Origin: a virus | Direction: 5' to 3' (one strand) | UHGV virus genome: UHGV-0234484 | Length of the DNA stretch: 13,965 nucleotides | In this document: positions 952 to 5,716 of the stretch, piece by piece | Layout: the number at the start of each line of letters is the position of its first letter | Numbering within the stretch: position 1 is the first letter of the stretch | Notes under the pieces: generated by a model | What the model saw: only the letters and a program-made list of their open reading frames with translations | What the model was told of the DNA's origin: nothing | The model's database searches: none | Position numbers and translations under genes: made by a program

Positions 952-2034
952 TTAGAACTGATAAACCAGACCTACAGCGACGATGTCGTCGGTATCAATA
1001 CCAGCTGTTTTGGTAAACTTACTATCGTCAATTAAGTTGATTTTGTAATCAACAAAAGTGGACATGTTTTTATTAAAGTAGTAAGTAGCACCGACATCGA
1101 CATACTTGACTAAGTCTCGGTCACCATGAACACCAAGGTCTTTACCTTTTGACTGAAGGTAAGCAACAGATGGACGCAGACCGAAGTCAAACTGATATTG
1201 TGCTACTGCTTCAAAGTTTTGTGCTTTGTTTGCAATATGGTTATTACCAAAAACGGTCATATTCTGAGTTTCAGAATATGTGGTAGCCAGATAGATATTG
1301 TTCGCATCATATTTCAGGCCTGCAGCCCATACTTCCGCATTTTTGCCGGAGGCATTGAATTTGCTCTTACCATAGGCGACCTGACCGTCAGTGCGATCTG
1401 ATTTAGCATAGGTTGCACCCACGCCGAATCCTTCATACTCATAAGTAGTGGAGAAACCGAAACCATCACCATTGGCTTCAGTTACGTCAGTGCGGTCATT
1501 TTTACCCTGATACTGAGCAGCAAAGTTCAGGCCATCGACCAGACCAAAGAAGTCGTTGTTACGATAAGTTGCAACACCAGTAGTGCGACCAGTCATGAAC
1601 ACATCTGTTTGGGTCCAGGTATCACCACCGAATTCTGGCAGGACGTCAGTCCACGCACCGATGTCGTATGCTACACCGTAGTTACGGCCGTAATCGATTG
1701 AGCCGTAATCACCAAATTTCAGGCCTGCAAATGCAAGACGGGTTTTGTCTTTGGAAGAACCTTGAGATTCAGCACGGTTGCCTTTGAATTCATATTCCCA
1801 CTGACCGAAACCAGTCAGTTGATCGTTGATTTGGGTTTCACCTTTGAAGCCAAGACGGGCATAAGTAGTATCACCATCATCTGCATCATTAGAGGAGAAG
1901 TAGTGCTTGGCATTAACTTTCCCGTATAGATCCAGCTTGTTACTGTCTTTATTATAAATTTCAGCTGCCTGAGCAGACATCGCCATCAGTACTGATGCAG
2001 CTACAGCAGAAATTGCCACTGTTAATTTTTTCAT
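952..2034 (-). CDS. nmpC: outer-membrane general porin, OmpC/PhoE family (NmpC / Lc / OmpD-like), intact, 360 aa
   Basis: N-terminal signal peptide [23 protein letters not shown] then AEIYNKD; porin-like composition rich in G, Y, D, N; C-terminal ...VGLVYQF ending in Phe, as in beta-barrel OMPs. Sits between Q and the lysis genes, as nmpC does in DLP12. No IS interruption is visible. Confidence 0.85.
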
Positions 2035-3336: not shown

Positions 3337-3797
3337 GCAGGTTAACCGCGATTATCTCCGCTCTGGTTATCTGCATCATCGTCTGTCTGTCATGGGCTGT
3401 TAATCATTACCGTGATAACGCCATTACCTATAAAGAACAGCGCGACAAAAATACCAGAGAACTGAAGCTGGCGAACGCGGCAATTACTGACATGCAGATG
3501 CGTCAGCGTGATGTTGCTGCGCTCGATGCAAAATACACGAAGGAGTTAGCTGATGCGAAAGCTGAAAATGATGCTCTGCGTAATGATGTTGCCGTTGGTC
3601 GTCGTCGGTTGCACATCAAAGCAGTCTGTCAGCCAGTGCGTGAAGCCACCACCGCCTCCGGCGTGGGTAATGCAGCCTCCCCCCGACTTACTGACTCCGC
3701 TGAACGGGATTATTTCACCCTCAGAGAACGAATCGACACAGTGACGAAGCAGGTTGGTTATCTGCAGGAATATGTGAAAAGACAATGCGTTCAGTGA
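3333..3797 (+). CDS. rzpD: i-spanin Rz (inner-membrane spanin subunit)
   Basis: ATG at 3333 overlaps the endolysin TGA (ATGA). N-terminal TM helix ([20 protein letters not shown]) followed by a coiled-coil-like periplasmic domain. The listed ORF start at 3321 is an upstream GTG. Confidence 0.85.
3553..3744 (+). CDS. rzoD: o-spanin Rz1 (outer-membrane lipoprotein), embedded in the +1 frame of Rz
   Basis: Entirely inside Rz in another frame. Lipoprotein signal with lipobox ([14 protein letters not shown]) followed by a proline-rich mature region ([14 protein letters not shown]), the Rz1 hallmark. Confidence 0.85.
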
Positions 3798-3867
3798 CAA
3801 AAAAATCACAATCCGTATCAAAGATGAGTAAAATCTGAACTCATAAACAAATGTTGGATACATATCA

Positions 3868-4425
3868 ATGATACAGGATTGGTTAGATTACCAAAATCTC
3901 GAGACTGCTAAGTCAGCAGCGAGGGCCGCGTGGGAGTCTTTAGAATGGACGAAAATTTCAGCGATTGCCTCTTGGGTTTCTGTAGTGCTCTCTGCAATAA
4001 CCTCAGGCGTAGCTATCTACGCAATGGGTACTTGGAAATCACAAGAGAAAGTAAAAGCTAAACGTGAGATCAAAAAAGCAGCAGGTAAGCTGTATGTAGA
4101 AGTAGGGCTAATGCCACAAATATTCACAAGCAAGAATGTTACTAACGGTCAGGTTGTTTCCAAGTCACCTAATTTTGAAGTGTTGGCTAGCCAAAAAAAT
4201 CAAGGCTATATTGATGAATGGTTAATGCACGAAAAGTTATCGGAACTGTATTTACAGCTCAAATACTTGGGGTATGCCGTAGTTGATGATCTGACTAGCG
4301 CCCAAAAAGATGCGCTAAACGGTTTGGATACACATTTTCAAAATTATTATTCTTACACCGAAAGTAAGGTGAATTTTGAAAAATCTTTAAAGGATTTTTT
4401 GGATAAGATGGACATCTATAAATAG
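3868..4425 (+). CDS. hypothetical membrane-anchored protein, 185 aa, low-GC accessory (moron) gene
   Basis: Clean ORF in lower-GC, AT-rich sequence between the spanins and cos. Predicted single TM segment around residues 29-53 (ISAIASWVSVVLSAITSGVAIYAMG) followed by a Lys-rich stretch and a roughly 130-aa soluble domain. Followed by a terminator. I do not recognise the family. Confidence 0.6.
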   Translation: MIQDWLDYQNLETAKSAARAAWESLEWTKISAIASWVSVVLSAITSGVAIYAMGTWKSQEKVKAKREIKKAAGKLYVEVGLMPQIFTSKNVTNGQVVSKSPNFEVLASQKNQGYIDEWLMHEKLSELYLQLKYLGYAVVDDLTSAQKDALNGLDTHFQNYYSYTESKVNFEKSLKDFLDKMDIYK

Positions 4426-4442
4426 TCAAATCCTATCGGTAA

Positions 4443-4466
4443 GCCGCCTCCGGGCGGTTTTTTATT
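4443..4466 (+). terminator. rho-independent terminator after the 185-aa ORF
   Basis: CCGCC-TCCG-GGCGG stem-loop at 4444-4457 followed by TTTTTTATT, 18 nt after the stop at 4425. Confidence 0.5.
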
Positions 4467-4504
4467 GCCATCACAATGGGCAGGCCCATCGTAACGGCAG
4501 TATC

Positions 4505-4831
4505 TTATATACACCAATGACATCTCTGGATGGTTGGCAGTCCTGTTAGTTGGCCTGCGGTGGACTCGGCCTCGTCAAGCGTAAGAACACATACTTTTTG
4601 GTATCGGCCAGTAGTAAAGCTGGCGTGATTTTTAGGACTGATTAATGGGTTGATTGATTTGCATGAGGCTCGATGAATCCGCGTAAATCTGGCATCACTT
4701 TTTCTGCCTTTCCCGCTGGCCGACTTAAGCAGATTAATAACGAATCCATCGGAATGGGTCGCTAGCCAACTCTTGTACATCGCTTCGCTATCAACATCCT
4801 GTATTTCACTGCTGAAAATAGTAATGCCCAT
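4505..4831 (-). CDS. hypothetical protein, 108 aa, convergent with the 185-aa ORF
   Basis: Minus-strand ORF with ATG at 4829-4831 and TAA at 4505-4507, preceded on its own strand by an AT-rich stretch and GGAAAAAAT before the ATG. Product ends ...QRCHWCI and contains HRASCKS. No recognisable family. It occupies the position where lambda carries bor, but the sequence is unrelated to Bor as I remember it. Confidence 0.45.
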   Translation of the reverse strand: MGITIFSSEIQDVDSEAMYKSWLATHSDGFVINLLKSASGKGRKSDARFTRIHRASCKSINPLISPKNHASFTTGRYQKVCVLTLDEAESTAGQLTGLPTIQRCHWCI

Positions 4832-4989
4832 ATTTTTTCCGTATATGACTAACTGATATGAATATGTATCAGGACTATTTTATGGCAAAACCAGAGTAGA
4901 AGGCCATTGGGTCCGGAGTGTTGATGTGAACAAATTACCCCCCCCTCTAAGTGTAATTGATATGTATTATCATTTTCGGGTCCTTTCCG

Positions 4990-5190
4990 GCGATCCGGAG
5001 CGTTACGGGGCGGAAGGCGCGCGGGTTTTCGCTATTTATGAAAATTTTCCGGTTTAAGGCGTTTCCGTTCTTCTTCGCCGTAACTTAATGTTTTTATTTA
5101 AAACACCCTCTGAAAAGAAAGGAAACGACAGGTGCTGAAAACGAGCTTTTTGGCCTCTGTCGTTTCCTTTCTCTGTTTTTGTCCGTGGAA
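4990..5190 (+). other. cos: cos site (cosQ / cosN / cosB) for terminase-mediated packaging; cosN at about 5008-5019
   Basis: From 5020 onward the sequence (CGCGGGTTTTCGCTATTTATGAAAATTTTCCGGTTTAAGGCGTTTCCGTTCTTCTTCG...) matches my memory of the lambda left end (cosB with R3/I1/R2/R1) almost base for base, up to the nu1 ATG at 5197. The 12 nt just before it read GGGCGGAAGGCG, against lambda cosN GGGCGGCGACCT. Confidence 0.8.
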
Positions 5191-5196
5191 TGAACA

Positions 5197-5716
5197 ATGG
5201 AAGTCAACAAAAAGCAGCTGGCTGACATTTTCGGCGCGAGTATCCGTACCATTCAGAACTGGCAGGAGCAGGGAATGCCCGTTCTGCGGGGTGGTGGCAA
5301 GGGTAATGAAGTGCTTTATGACTCTGCCGCCGCCATAAAATGGTATGCCGAAAGGGATGCTGAAATTGAGAACGAAAAGCTGCGCCGGGAAGTTGAAGAA
5401 CTGCGGCAGGCCAGCGAGACAGATCTCCAGCCAGGGACTATTGAGTACGAACGCCATCGACTTACGCGTGCGCAGGCCGACGCACAGGAGCTGAAAAATG
5501 CCAGAGACTCCGCTGAAGTGGTGGAAACCGCATTCTGTACTTTCGTGCTGTCGCGGATCGCAGGTGAAATTGCCAGTATTCTCGACGGGATCCCCCTGTC
5601 GGTGCAGCGGCGTTTTCCGGAACTGGAAAACCGACATGTTGATTTCCTGAAACGGGATATCATCAAAGCCATGAACAAAGCAGCCGCGCTGGATGAACTG
5701 ATACCGGGGTTGCTGA

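What the first reader, a model, noticed from the sequence alone, without database searches (positions are those of the whole stretch)
4505..4831. Second orphan ORF, convergent with the 185-aa gene, where lambda has bor
A 108-aa minus-strand ORF with a plausible start context but no family I recognise (C-terminal ...QRCHWCI, one HRASCKS patch). It converges on the 185-aa gene across the terminator at 4443-4466, so the two are not an operon. Two non-lambda genes in a roughly 1.1 kb block, flanked by highly conserved lysis and packaging modules, mark this as the variable accessory island of the element.
Basis: partly seen in the sequence, partly recalled or inferred. Interest (0 to 1): 0.5.

Follow-up and report, generated by a model that had tools for sequence, protein, structure and literature searches.

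The report
Unannotated prophage gene, zinc-domain protein
The 108-codon reading frame is a real, self-contained accessory gene of a lambda-like E. coli prophage that standard annotation mostly misses; it encodes a small, probably zinc-binding protein from a widespread unnamed family whose domain sits at the front of DNA-cutting defence enzymes in other bacteria, and its own function is still only inferred.

Summary
The ORF at 4505-4831 (-) is real. Relatives at 49-65% identity keep it intact, with median dN/dS 0.18 and saturated synonymous sites. It has a conserved sigma-70-type promoter and a Shine-Dalgarno site, and two hairpins follow its stop codon. It occurs in only 8 of 5,426 complete E. 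coli genomes, next to different neighbours, so it is independent of the 185-aa gene. It is not an orphan: a profile search finds 211 clusters, but the family has no Pfam, NCBIfam, PHROG, PADLOC or PDB match. AlphaFold gives a confident alpha/beta fold (pLDDT 93.7) with no significant structural neighbour. Family-wide motifs are H-x3-C and a C-terminal C-x(1-2)-C, which suggest a zinc site. In other bacteria the domain is fused in front of McrA-type HNH nucleases, where it replaces McrA's DNA-reader domain. The gene lies immediately upstream of, and divergent from, small-terminase genes of at least four types; here it is the last gene before cos. The window still holds a decayed start of a foreign terS next to it. 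My best reading is a prophage moron encoding a nuclease-less DNA-reader-like zinc protein that acts in phage-host conflict. The gene is shown; the function is inferred. Interest is moderate.

The parts
4505..4831 (-). Protein-coding gene, 108 aa including the stop codon at 4505-4507. The product is basic (pI 9.05) and has the family motifs H53-x3-C57, C81 and C104-x2-C107.
   Evidence: Searches give the ORF and conservation: H-x3-C (one H-x3-H) in 67/67 members, C-terminal CxxC in 64/67, C81 in 62/67. Searches give dN/dS of 0.07-0.3, median 0.18. One search gives the AF2 model with pLDDT 93.7 and pTM 0.87. One search gives pI and charge.
4861..4888 (-). Sigma-70-type promoter candidate: -35 TTGCCA (4888-4883), a 16-nt spacer, -10 CATATT (4866-4861).
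   Evidence: Found by the consensus scan. TTGCCA-16-TATATT recurs in register in eight of the non-identical upstream sequences of relatives, with near-variants in five more, and in the alignment, although coding synonymous sites are saturated. No transcript data exist.
4838..4840 (-). Shine-Dalgarno remnant GGA, 6 nt before the ATG. Relatives have GGAG at the same place.
4882..4909 (+). Decayed 5' end of a foreign small-terminase gene: ATGGCAAAACCAGAGTAGAAGGCCATTG, reading M-A-K-P-E-stop-K-A-I. Its ATG overlaps the -35 hexamer of the divergent promoter.
   Evidence: this aligns with the intact terS starts of relatives (MAKPDWG..., MTKPDWEAI...). Those lie 46-51 bp upstream of the homologous gene.
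4463..4502 (-). 3'-UTR hairpin 1, an imperfect 19-bp inverted repeat that starts 3 nt after the stop codon.
   Evidence: One search reports inverted repeat I2. folds it as RNA together with hairpin 2: dG -35.9 kcal/mol, z = -4.2. One search shows it conserved in L004. In SCU-301 a stop-to-Ser change reads through it, giving a 122-aa product.
4441..4466 (.). GC-rich hairpin 2 plus a T-run on the + strand. It looks like an intrinsic terminator for the 185-aa gene. It is the left edge of the shared module and only a weak terminator for the minus-strand gene, which has no U-tract.
   Evidence: The 65-bp twin-hairpin element (4441-4505) also occurs without the ORF in about 93 other E. coli genomes. 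In the two checked it lies behind another post-lysis accessory gene.
4441..4965 (.). The mobile module as a whole: hairpins, gene, promoter, terS remnant and a non-lambda spacer up to the point where lambda cosQ/cosN homology starts.
   Evidence: Searches show the module shared with C4 and SCU-301 from 4441/4453 onward at 97-99% identity. One search shows lambda homology from 4966.

Best explanation
The ORF is a moron: a self-contained accessory transcription unit that modular recombination placed at the right end of a lambda-like prophage genome, between the lysis cassette and cos/Nu1. It runs antisense to the late operon from its own sigma-70 promoter, so it is probably made in the lysogen, or early after infection, rather than as a late protein. 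The product is a small, basic alpha/beta protein. It most likely holds one zinc ion through His53, Cys57, Cys104 and Cys107, with Cys81 as a fifth conserved residue. It belongs to a widespread family that has not been described. The same domain forms the N-terminal module of McrA-type HNH nucleases, HNH_2 nucleases and NOV_C-domain proteins. There it takes the place of McrA's DNA-modification reader, so I infer that it recognises nucleic acid. On that reading the phage protein is a reader without a nuclease: it binds DNA, possibly a particular modification or structure, without cutting it. This would affect a phage-host or phage-phage conflict, either by shielding the phage's own DNA from nucleases or by blocking incoming DNA. 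Shown: a real gene under purifying selection, independent mobility, conserved expression signals, the family and its fusions, and a confident fold. Inferred: zinc binding, DNA binding, timing of expression and biological role. Rough likelihoods: real autonomous accessory gene >0.9; zinc site about 0.7; nucleic-acid binding about 0.45; a role in defence or anti-defence about 0.35. The overall confidence of 0.5 is for the statement as a whole.
For: Gene reality: homologues at 49-65% identity keep a 105-108-aa frame. Synonymous sites are saturated while pN is about 0.3. Median dN/dS is 0.18, and codon positions 1/2/3 vary in 67/54/104 of 106 codons. Autonomy: the module 4441-4965 sits behind three different upstream genes in E28, C4 and SCU-301. 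It is present in 8 of 5,426 complete E. coli genomes. Its GC is 45.6% against 52% for the window. Expression signals: TTGCCA-16-(C/T)ATATT and GGAG are kept in register across diverged relatives, and twin 3' hairpins follow the stop. Family: 211 representative clusters at E<=1e-3 and 134 proteins in the second search, named 'hypothetical' wherever named, apart from one JGI 'restriction protein A' label. W22, G29, H53 and K79 are invariant; C57, C81, C104 and C107 are in >=62 of 67 members. Fold: pLDDT 93.7, pTM 0.87. Fusions: of 55 longer relatives, 7 carry HNH, 7 HNH_2 and 2 NOV_C. In the six HNH-fused relatives scanned one by one, PADLOC models (Type IV mREase in four, other HNH/REase models in two) cover only the C-terminal nuclease part. 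The Vibrio relative matches EcoKMcrA 6GHC residues 175-267 at E 2e-24. So the domain occupies the place of McrA's N-terminal specificity domain; domain-separated sensor/nuclease architecture is the rule for such enzymes (PMC7145662 and PMC6765204). Mobile, conflict-type settings: prophage accessory slot, cargo of 4.5-kb Col156/MOBQ plasmids, a Vibrio plasmid locus among many small ORFs and a toxin-antitoxin pair, and a locus beside AAA_15/AAA_21 ATPase, NurA and a toxin-antitoxin pair. A McrA-like 287-aa HNH gene lies next to it in 4 of 41 related loci. Charge: pI 9.05, residues 35-79 have 11 K/R against 1 D/E; family median pI is 8.75.
Confidence: 0.5

Rival explanations
1. It is an anti-restriction or anti-defence factor. 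A reader-only copy of the sensor domain of McrA-type nucleases would occupy their DNA targets, or poison their dimers, and so protect the phage or plasmid when it enters a new host. This is a specific version of the conflict role in the best explanation.
For: The domain is shared with Type-IV-like HNH nucleases. It is carried by mobile elements that must survive entry: prophages and small mobilizable plasmids. It has its own host-type promoter and, in cos phages, is the gene nearest the right DNA end. That end is the first in under the accepted last-in-first-out view of lambda ejection (described in PMC10287942).
Against: The first-in argument fails for the headful-packaging relatives. It is also contested for lambda itself, where about 50% ejection from either end was seen in vitro (PMC10287942). 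No enterobacterial nuclease carrying this domain was found here: the plasmid search gave only a Vibrio fusion. Lambda-like DNA carries only host methylation. There is no assay.
Confidence: 0.12
2. It is an accessory factor of DNA packaging or cos/pac recognition that works with the small terminase.
For: Its position is strikingly fixed, immediately upstream of and divergent from small-terminase genes of at least four types. These are lambda Nu1 (10 loci), Terminase_2 (9), a 'MATPDWEAI' type (3), DUF1441 (7) and HNH plus Terminase_4 (1). Its promoter overlaps the terS start codon.
Against: It is transcribed against the late operon from a sigma-70 promoter. It is absent from almost all phages that use the same Nu1/A/cos: 8 genomes against 4,357 with the Nu1-proximal DNA. 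Lambda packages without it. Homologues also occur on 4.5-kb plasmids and in non-phage chromosomal sites. Conserved position is expected for any gene at a module boundary when modules are exchanged by recombination.
Confidence: 0.07
3. It is a distant Ada-N-type zinc domain that senses or repairs alkylated DNA, or regulates transcription in response to it.
Confidence: 0.05
4. It forms a two-gene unit with the convergent 185-aa membrane protein, for example toxin/antitoxin or sensor/effector.
For: The two genes are neighbours in the same non-lambda block in E28 and E300082. The 185-aa protein has a faint PD-Lambda-6 match (E 0.0036).
Against: The genes converge on a terminator. Six of the eight E. 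coli copies have other genes in place of the 185-aa gene. No relative elsewhere showed a called gene of that size beside it. GC contents differ, 39% against 46%.
Confidence: 0.04
5. It is a spurious ORF, and the conservation belongs to DNA or RNA signals near cos.
For: NCBI's pipeline leaves it unannotated in 7 of 8 complete E. coli genomes. No family library knows it.
Against: The frame is kept at 49-65% protein identity with saturated synonymous change and dN/dS of 0.13-0.49. Hundreds of relatives have invariant residues. The fold is predicted with high confidence. No Rfam family matches. Relatives occur far from any cos site.
Confidence: 0.02

Closest known systems
N-terminal specificity domain (NEco) of EcoKMcrA, and sensor domains of modification-dependent HNH restriction enzymes in general (PMC7145662, PMC6765204)
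   Same: Same architectural position. In relatives such as Vibrio WP_242014617.1 the domain sits directly in front of an HNH domain that matches EcoKMcrA residues 175-267 (E 2e-24) and PADLOC's Type IV model.
Ada N-terminal zinc domain (Pfam PF02805; PDB 1ADN/1EYF/1U8B)
   Different: Not significant by profile comparison or by Pfam. His replaces the methyl-acceptor cysteine. There is an extra strand-loop insert with a fifth cysteine.
Lambda bor and other morons of the lysis-to-terminase interval (for example LT-II toxin loci 3' of a lysis gene, PMC3252337)
   Same: The same interval of a lambdoid prophage. Like lambda bor it is antisense to the late operon. It has its own promoter-like site, is present in some relatives and absent in others, and has a lower GC.
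   Different: Unrelated protein (E 0.32). It has no hydrophobic N-terminus and no lipobox by eye, so it is cytoplasmic rather than an envelope protein. It lies at the cos-proximal end of the interval, not directly after Rz.
Pfam DUF6233 (PF19746)
   Same: The only Pfam family hit repeatedly, and weakly, by family members, at the H-x3-C motif (5 of 67 members, best E 0.076; P0017 E 0.0016).
   Different: All hits are below the gathering score, and the window protein gives none. DUF6233 is itself uncharacterised, and no paper in the library mentions it.

Membership tests
Prophage moron (independent accessory transcription unit between genes that are adjacent in related phages) | Present in some closely related phages and absent in others, with conserved flanks | tested here: met
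   8 of 5,426 complete E. coli genomes carry it, against 4,357 that match the adjacent Nu1-proximal DNA. Lambda lacks it. The same module sits behind different genes in E28, C4 and SCU-301.
Prophage moron (independent accessory transcription unit between genes that are adjacent in related phages) | Own promoter | tested here: inconclusive
   TTGCCA-16-CATATT at 4888-4861 is conserved in register in relatives at about 50% protein identity. No transcript data are available.
Prophage moron (independent accessory transcription unit between genes that are adjacent in related phages) | Own terminator | tested here: inconclusive
   Two stable hairpins follow the stop codon (dG -35.9 kcal/mol, z -4.2). 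The U-tract lies on the other strand.
Prophage moron (independent accessory transcription unit between genes that are adjacent in related phages) | Base composition different from the neighbouring phage genes | tested here: met
   GC 45.6% and GC3 44% against Nu1 53%/57% and A 54%/61%.
Ada_Zn_binding (PF02805) | Match to the family profile | tested here: not met
   No PF02805 hit for the window protein or for any of 67 relatives at E<=10. hhalign against a 45-sequence Ada profile gives P 0.14.
Ada_Zn_binding (PF02805) | Four cysteine zinc ligands including the nucleophilic Cys38 | tested here: not met
   The position that aligns with Cys38 is His in 67 of 67 members.
Ada_Zn_binding (PF02805) | Fold similarity to N-Ada | tested here: inconclusive
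Type IV modification-dependent restriction enzyme, McrA type | HNH catalytic domain | tested here: not met
   The 108-aa protein has no HNH match in Pfam or PADLOC. Only longer relatives carry one.
Type IV modification-dependent restriction enzyme, McrA type | N-terminal domain that reads a DNA modification | not testable with these tools
   The domain occupies that position in fused relatives. Binding specificity needs biochemistry.
Bor/Iss outer-membrane lipoprotein | Signal peptide with lipobox, and sequence similarity to Bor | tested here: not met
   BLASTP against lambda Bor gives E 0.32. The N-terminus MGITIFSSEIQDVDSE shows no lipobox by eye, and the maximum 15-residue hydropathy is 0.73.
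DUF6233 (PF19746) | Profile match above the gathering score (27.6 bits) | tested here: not met
   No hit for the window protein. Relatives score at most 19 bits.
Terminase-associated HNH packaging factor (HK97 gp74 type; from my own knowledge of the literature) | HNH motif, co-oriented with the terminase genes in the late operon | tested here: not met
   There is no HNH domain. The gene is divergent from the terminase genes.

The most novel reading that the evidence does not exclude
The family would be a new class of zinc-dependent DNA (or DNA-modification) reader domain used by McrA-type Type IV restriction nucleases. In cos phages it would sit at the DNA end that enters the cell first.
Probability: 0.1. 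Interest if true: 0.7.

Novelty: new member of a known kind. Interest (0 to 1): 0.4.

Why it matters
The finding points to a concrete annotation gap. A gene under clear purifying selection is left uncalled in 7 of 8 complete E. coli genomes. Its family has hundreds of clusters across many phyla but no entry in Pfam, NCBIfam, PHROGs, PADLOC or the PDB. Because the domain replaces the known reader domain in McrA-type nucleases, it is a ready candidate for the architecture-guided discovery of new restriction specificities that has worked for PUA, EVE and winged-helix fusions (PMC6765204, PMC11037411). A stand-alone copy in prophages and mobilizable plasmids would then be a candidate modulator of such nucleases. 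The decayed terS start beside the gene is a small, clean record of how a module moved between phages with unrelated packaging systems.

Tried and rejected
1. Direct family searches of the 108-aa protein against Pfam, PHROGs, NCBIfam and PADLOC gave nothing. A profile search against PDB sequences gave nothing at E<=10.
3. I built a 45-sequence Ada N-domain profile to test my Ada hypothesis. It was not significant, so I dropped it as a membership claim.
4. Comparisons with EcoKMcrA NEco and with lambda Bor were negative.
5. I looked for a conserved same-strand partner gene. The 61-aa and 120-aa ORFs downstream in relatives have no family hits and no counterpart in the window.
6. A 112-aa minus-strand ORF in the same slot of strain M10 is unrelated.
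7. Non-phage contexts (Brucella, an unidentified genome (GCA_964479165.1), Chloroflexi, Paraburkholderia) show no shared neighbour.
8. The alignment of distant members was too diverse for a locus search, so I used the close alignment instead.
9. The Rfam scan of 3700-5300 gave only chance microRNA-model hits on the cosB hairpin.
10. A literature search for DUF6233 found nothing.

Full report

Yes. The window has an ATG-initiated ORF of 108 codons at 4505-4831 on the minus strand, ending ...QRCHWCI. It converges with the 185-aa gene (3868-4425, +) on a GC hairpin at 4441-4460 followed by a T-run.

The window is a lambda-like E. coli prophage. It is 100% identical over 3800-5200 to the chromosome of strain E28. 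Homology to phage lambda stops at the end of Rz and resumes at 4966 (lambda 48460, 94% identity), running through cosQ, cosN, cosB and Nu1. The cohesive-end junction is at 5007|5008.

Lambda's bor lies directly after Rz. That is the slot of the 185-aa gene. The 108-aa ORF is the last gene before cos, 177 bp from the DNA end.

**2. Is it a gene?**

Yes, for four reasons:
- A first search found eight homologues at 53-99% identity in Citrobacter, Yersinia, Salmonella and Leclercia.
- Forty viral contigs and one Citrobacter genome add to these, giving 25 distinct proteins. They are nearly all 105-108 aa, and only one copy is truncated.
- Between lineages, synonymous sites are saturated (pS 0.65-0.84) while pN is about 0.3.
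- For the 35 unsaturated pairs, median dN/dS is 0.18. Codon positions 1/2/3 vary in 67/54/104 of 106 codons.

All six E. coli copies I read are intact. Five encode 108 aa. The SCU-301 copy encodes 122 aa because its stop codon is changed to Ser. NCBI's pipeline annotated only that 122-aa variant; in the other seven genomes nothing is annotated under the ORF. No Rfam family matches the region.

**3. Is it an independent unit?**

Yes. The stretch from 4441/4453 to Nu1 is shared at 97-99% identity with strains C4, SCU-301 and others. In those strains, different genes precede it in place of the 185-aa gene. Only 8 of 5,426 complete E. coli genomes carry the module, whereas 4,357 match the neighbouring Nu1-proximal DNA. 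GC is 45.6%, against 52% for the window and 39% for the 185-aa gene.

The expression signals upstream and downstream are these:
- A sigma-70-type site, TTGCCA-16-CATATT, lies at 4888-4861. The same hexamers recur in register, with spacers of 16 or sometimes fewer bases, together with a GGAG ribosome-binding site, in relatives whose coding sequence is only about 50% identical.
- Downstream, two hairpins (4463-4502 and 4441-4460) fold with dG -35.9 kcal/mol and z = -4.2.
- The U-tract belongs to the plus strand, so termination of the minus-strand transcript is not established.

This 65-bp twin-hairpin element also occurs alone in about 93 other E. coli genomes. In the two I checked it lies behind another post-lysis accessory gene, so it looks like a recurrent module boundary.

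**4. A recombination scar.**

In relatives with other packaging systems, the gene starts 46-51 bp from the start codon of a divergent small-terminase gene (MAKPDWG..., MTKPDWEAI...). That ATG overlaps the -35 hexamer.

The window keeps a decayed copy of that terS start at 4882-4909, reading ATG GCA AAA CCA GAG TAG AAG GCC ATT. The module therefore came from a phage with a different terminase and was joined to lambda-type cos/Nu1 just inside terS.

Across the 41 related loci, the divergent upstream neighbour is:

| Upstream neighbour | Loci | Distance to the gene |
|---|---|---|
| Lambda Nu1 (cos lies in between) | 10 | 337-368 bp |
| Terminase_2 type | 9 | 46-85 bp |
| 'MATPDWEAI' type | 3 | 51 bp |
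| DUF1441 | 7 | 334 bp |
| HNH plus Terminase_4 | 1 | 11 bp to the longest reading frame |

The position at the lysis/packaging boundary is strongly conserved. The simplest reading is synteny preserved under modular exchange, because this interval is a recognised cargo site (for example the LT-II loci 3' of a lysis gene; PMC3252337).

**5. What is the protein?**

No named family matches in Pfam, PHROGs, NCBIfam or PADLOC. It is not an orphan, however:
- A profile search of 1.84 billion representatives gave 211 clusters at E<=1e-3.
- A second search gave 134 proteins from Chloroflexi, Planctomycetota, Brucella, Paraburkholderia and others. Those that carry a name are called 'hypothetical', apart from one JGI label of 5-methylcytosine-specific restriction protein A.

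In 67 stand-alone members, W22, G29, H53 and K79 are invariant. H-x3-C is present in 67/67 (one is H-x3-H), a C-terminal C-x(1-2)-C in 64/67 and C81 in 62/67. This pattern suggests a structural zinc site, which is an inference.

The protein is basic (pI 9.05; residues 35-79 have 11 K/R against 1 D/E). The family median pI is 8.75.

**6. Leads tested and not upheld.**

- DUF6233 is the only repeated Pfam hit, and it is weak (5 of 67 members, E >= 0.076).
- There is no similarity to EcoKMcrA's NEco domain (E 0.34) or to Bor (E 0.32).

**7. What the relatives say about function.**

Of 55 longer relatives, 7 carry HNH, 7 HNH_2 and 2 NOV_C domains. Others carry SIMPL, a protein kinase, a YgjP-like peptidase or an HTH.

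I scanned six HNH-fused relatives one by one. In each, the new domain is N-terminal, or central in the 329-aa P0023, and the PADLOC models cover only the C-terminal HNH part. Four match the Type IV mREase model over profile positions 159-258 of 277; two match other HNH/REase models. The Vibrio relative matches EcoKMcrA (6GHC) residues 175-267 at E 2e-24.

The domain therefore takes the place of McrA's N-terminal specificity domain. In this enzyme class, sensor and nuclease are separable modules, and the N-terminal one sets the specificity (PMC7145662, PMC6765204). By analogy, I infer that the domain recognises nucleic acid.

Stand-alone copies occur in these settings:
- the prophage accessory slot;
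- 4.5-4.7-kb Col156/MOBQ mobilizable plasmids, at 43-46% identity;
- a locus beside an AAA_15/AAA_21 ATPase, NurA and a toxin-antitoxin pair.

The fused Vibrio copy lies among many small ORFs and a toxin-antitoxin pair on a plasmid. In 4 of 41 related loci a 287-aa McrA-like HNH gene is adjacent, in two different orientations. Against a uniform conflict role, some copies sit among housekeeping genes.

**8. Most likely mechanism and rivals.**

I commit to this reading: an autonomously transcribed prophage moron that encodes a zinc-stabilised, nuclease-less DNA-reader-like protein and acts in phage-host or phage-phage conflict. My sub-likelihoods are:
- real accessory gene: above 0.9;
- zinc site: about 0.7;
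- nucleic-acid binding: about 0.45;
- conflict role: about 0.35.

The rivals are:
- A dedicated anti-restriction decoy (0.12). It is attractive because in cos phages the gene sits at the DNA end that enters first under the accepted last-in-first-out view. That view is contested (PMC10287942), and the argument does not hold for headful-packaging relatives.
- A packaging accessory factor (0.07). The gene is rare among Nu1/A phages, it runs antisense to the late operon, and homologues occur outside phages.
- An Ada-like alkylation sensor (0.05).
- A two-gene unit with the 185-aa protein (0.04). The pairing is not conserved.
- A spurious ORF (0.02). The substitution pattern refutes it.

**9. Novelty and verdict.**

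As a kind of thing, a moron in the lysis-terminase interval of a lambdoid prophage, this is ordinary. The protein family, however, is undescribed, has a confidently predicted fold without a detectable solved relative, and is a plausible new sensor module of McrA-type nucleases. Its interpretation is largely right, except for 'orphan' and the loose bor analogy. I rate the interest as moderate (0.4).

Noticed in passing
window 4882-4909 (+): A decayed start of a foreign small-terminase gene (ATGGCAAAACCAGAGTAG..., M-A-K-P-E-stop) lies next to lambda-type cos/Nu1. It is a recombination scar showing that the module came from a phage with a different packaging system.
   Followed up: yes
window 4441-4505: A 65-bp element of two hairpins recurs at 83-95% identity in about 93 other complete E. 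coli genomes without the 108-aa gene. In the two checked it lies just downstream of another post-lysis accessory gene (one is a DUF4145 protein). It looks like a shared module boundary or terminator cassette.
   Followed up: partly
window 3868-4425 (+): The neighbouring 185-aa gene matches phrog_6169 (E 1e-13, unknown function) and faintly matches the PADLOC PD-Lambda-6 model (E 0.0036, N-terminal part only). It has a hydrophobic stretch at about residues 29-56 and the lowest GC in the region (39%). It is present with this module in only 2 of the 8 E. coli genomes.
   Followed up: partly
window 4505-4831; RefSeq records NZ_CM143889.1, NZ_CP010121.1, NZ_CM128602.1, NZ_CP019455.1, NZ_CP148382.1, NZ_CP148366.1, NZ_LR778147.1: NCBI's pipeline leaves the intact 108-aa gene unannotated in 7 of 8 complete genomes. 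Only the 122-aa read-through variant of SCU-301 (WP_096987142.1, stop TAA changed to TCA) is called.
   Followed up: yes
window 5008-5019: The cohesive-end sequence differs from lambda's (GGGCGGAAGGCG against GGGCGGCGACCT), while the flanking cosQ and cosB sequences are about 94% identical.
   Followed up: no
window 952-2034 (-): A 360-aa ORF upstream of the lysis cassette is annotated 'porin OmpC' in the identical E28 prophage. It is a prophage-borne porin gene on the strand opposite to the late genes.
   Followed up: no
L042 3042-3905 (-), L051, L067 4652-5515 (-), L072: A 287-aa protein has an unassigned N-terminal region and a McrA-like HNH domain (PADLOC Type IV model E 2e-4; 6GHC E 0.016). 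It lies next to homologues of the 108-aa gene in 4 of 41 related loci, in two different orientations.
   Followed up: partly
L026 1983-2306 (-) (NC_011093.1) and L027 923-1246 (-): Homologues at 43-46% identity are one of only two cargo genes on 4.5-4.7-kb Col156/MOBQ mobilizable plasmids of Salmonella and E. coli. They converge with a 111-aa protein whose N-terminus looks like a signal peptide.
   Followed up: partly
L018 6001-6297 (+): In a Brucella-group genome a 98-aa family member sits on the same strand between the two propionyl-CoA carboxylase subunit genes. This is a housekeeping setting at odds with a purely mobile-element role.
   Followed up: no
L035 774-905 (+) (NZ_LR778147.1): A 43-codon ORF that lies about where cos should be, by its position relative to Nu1, is annotated 'DNA-packaging protein' (WP_115423981.1). 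This is probably an annotation artefact.
   Followed up: no
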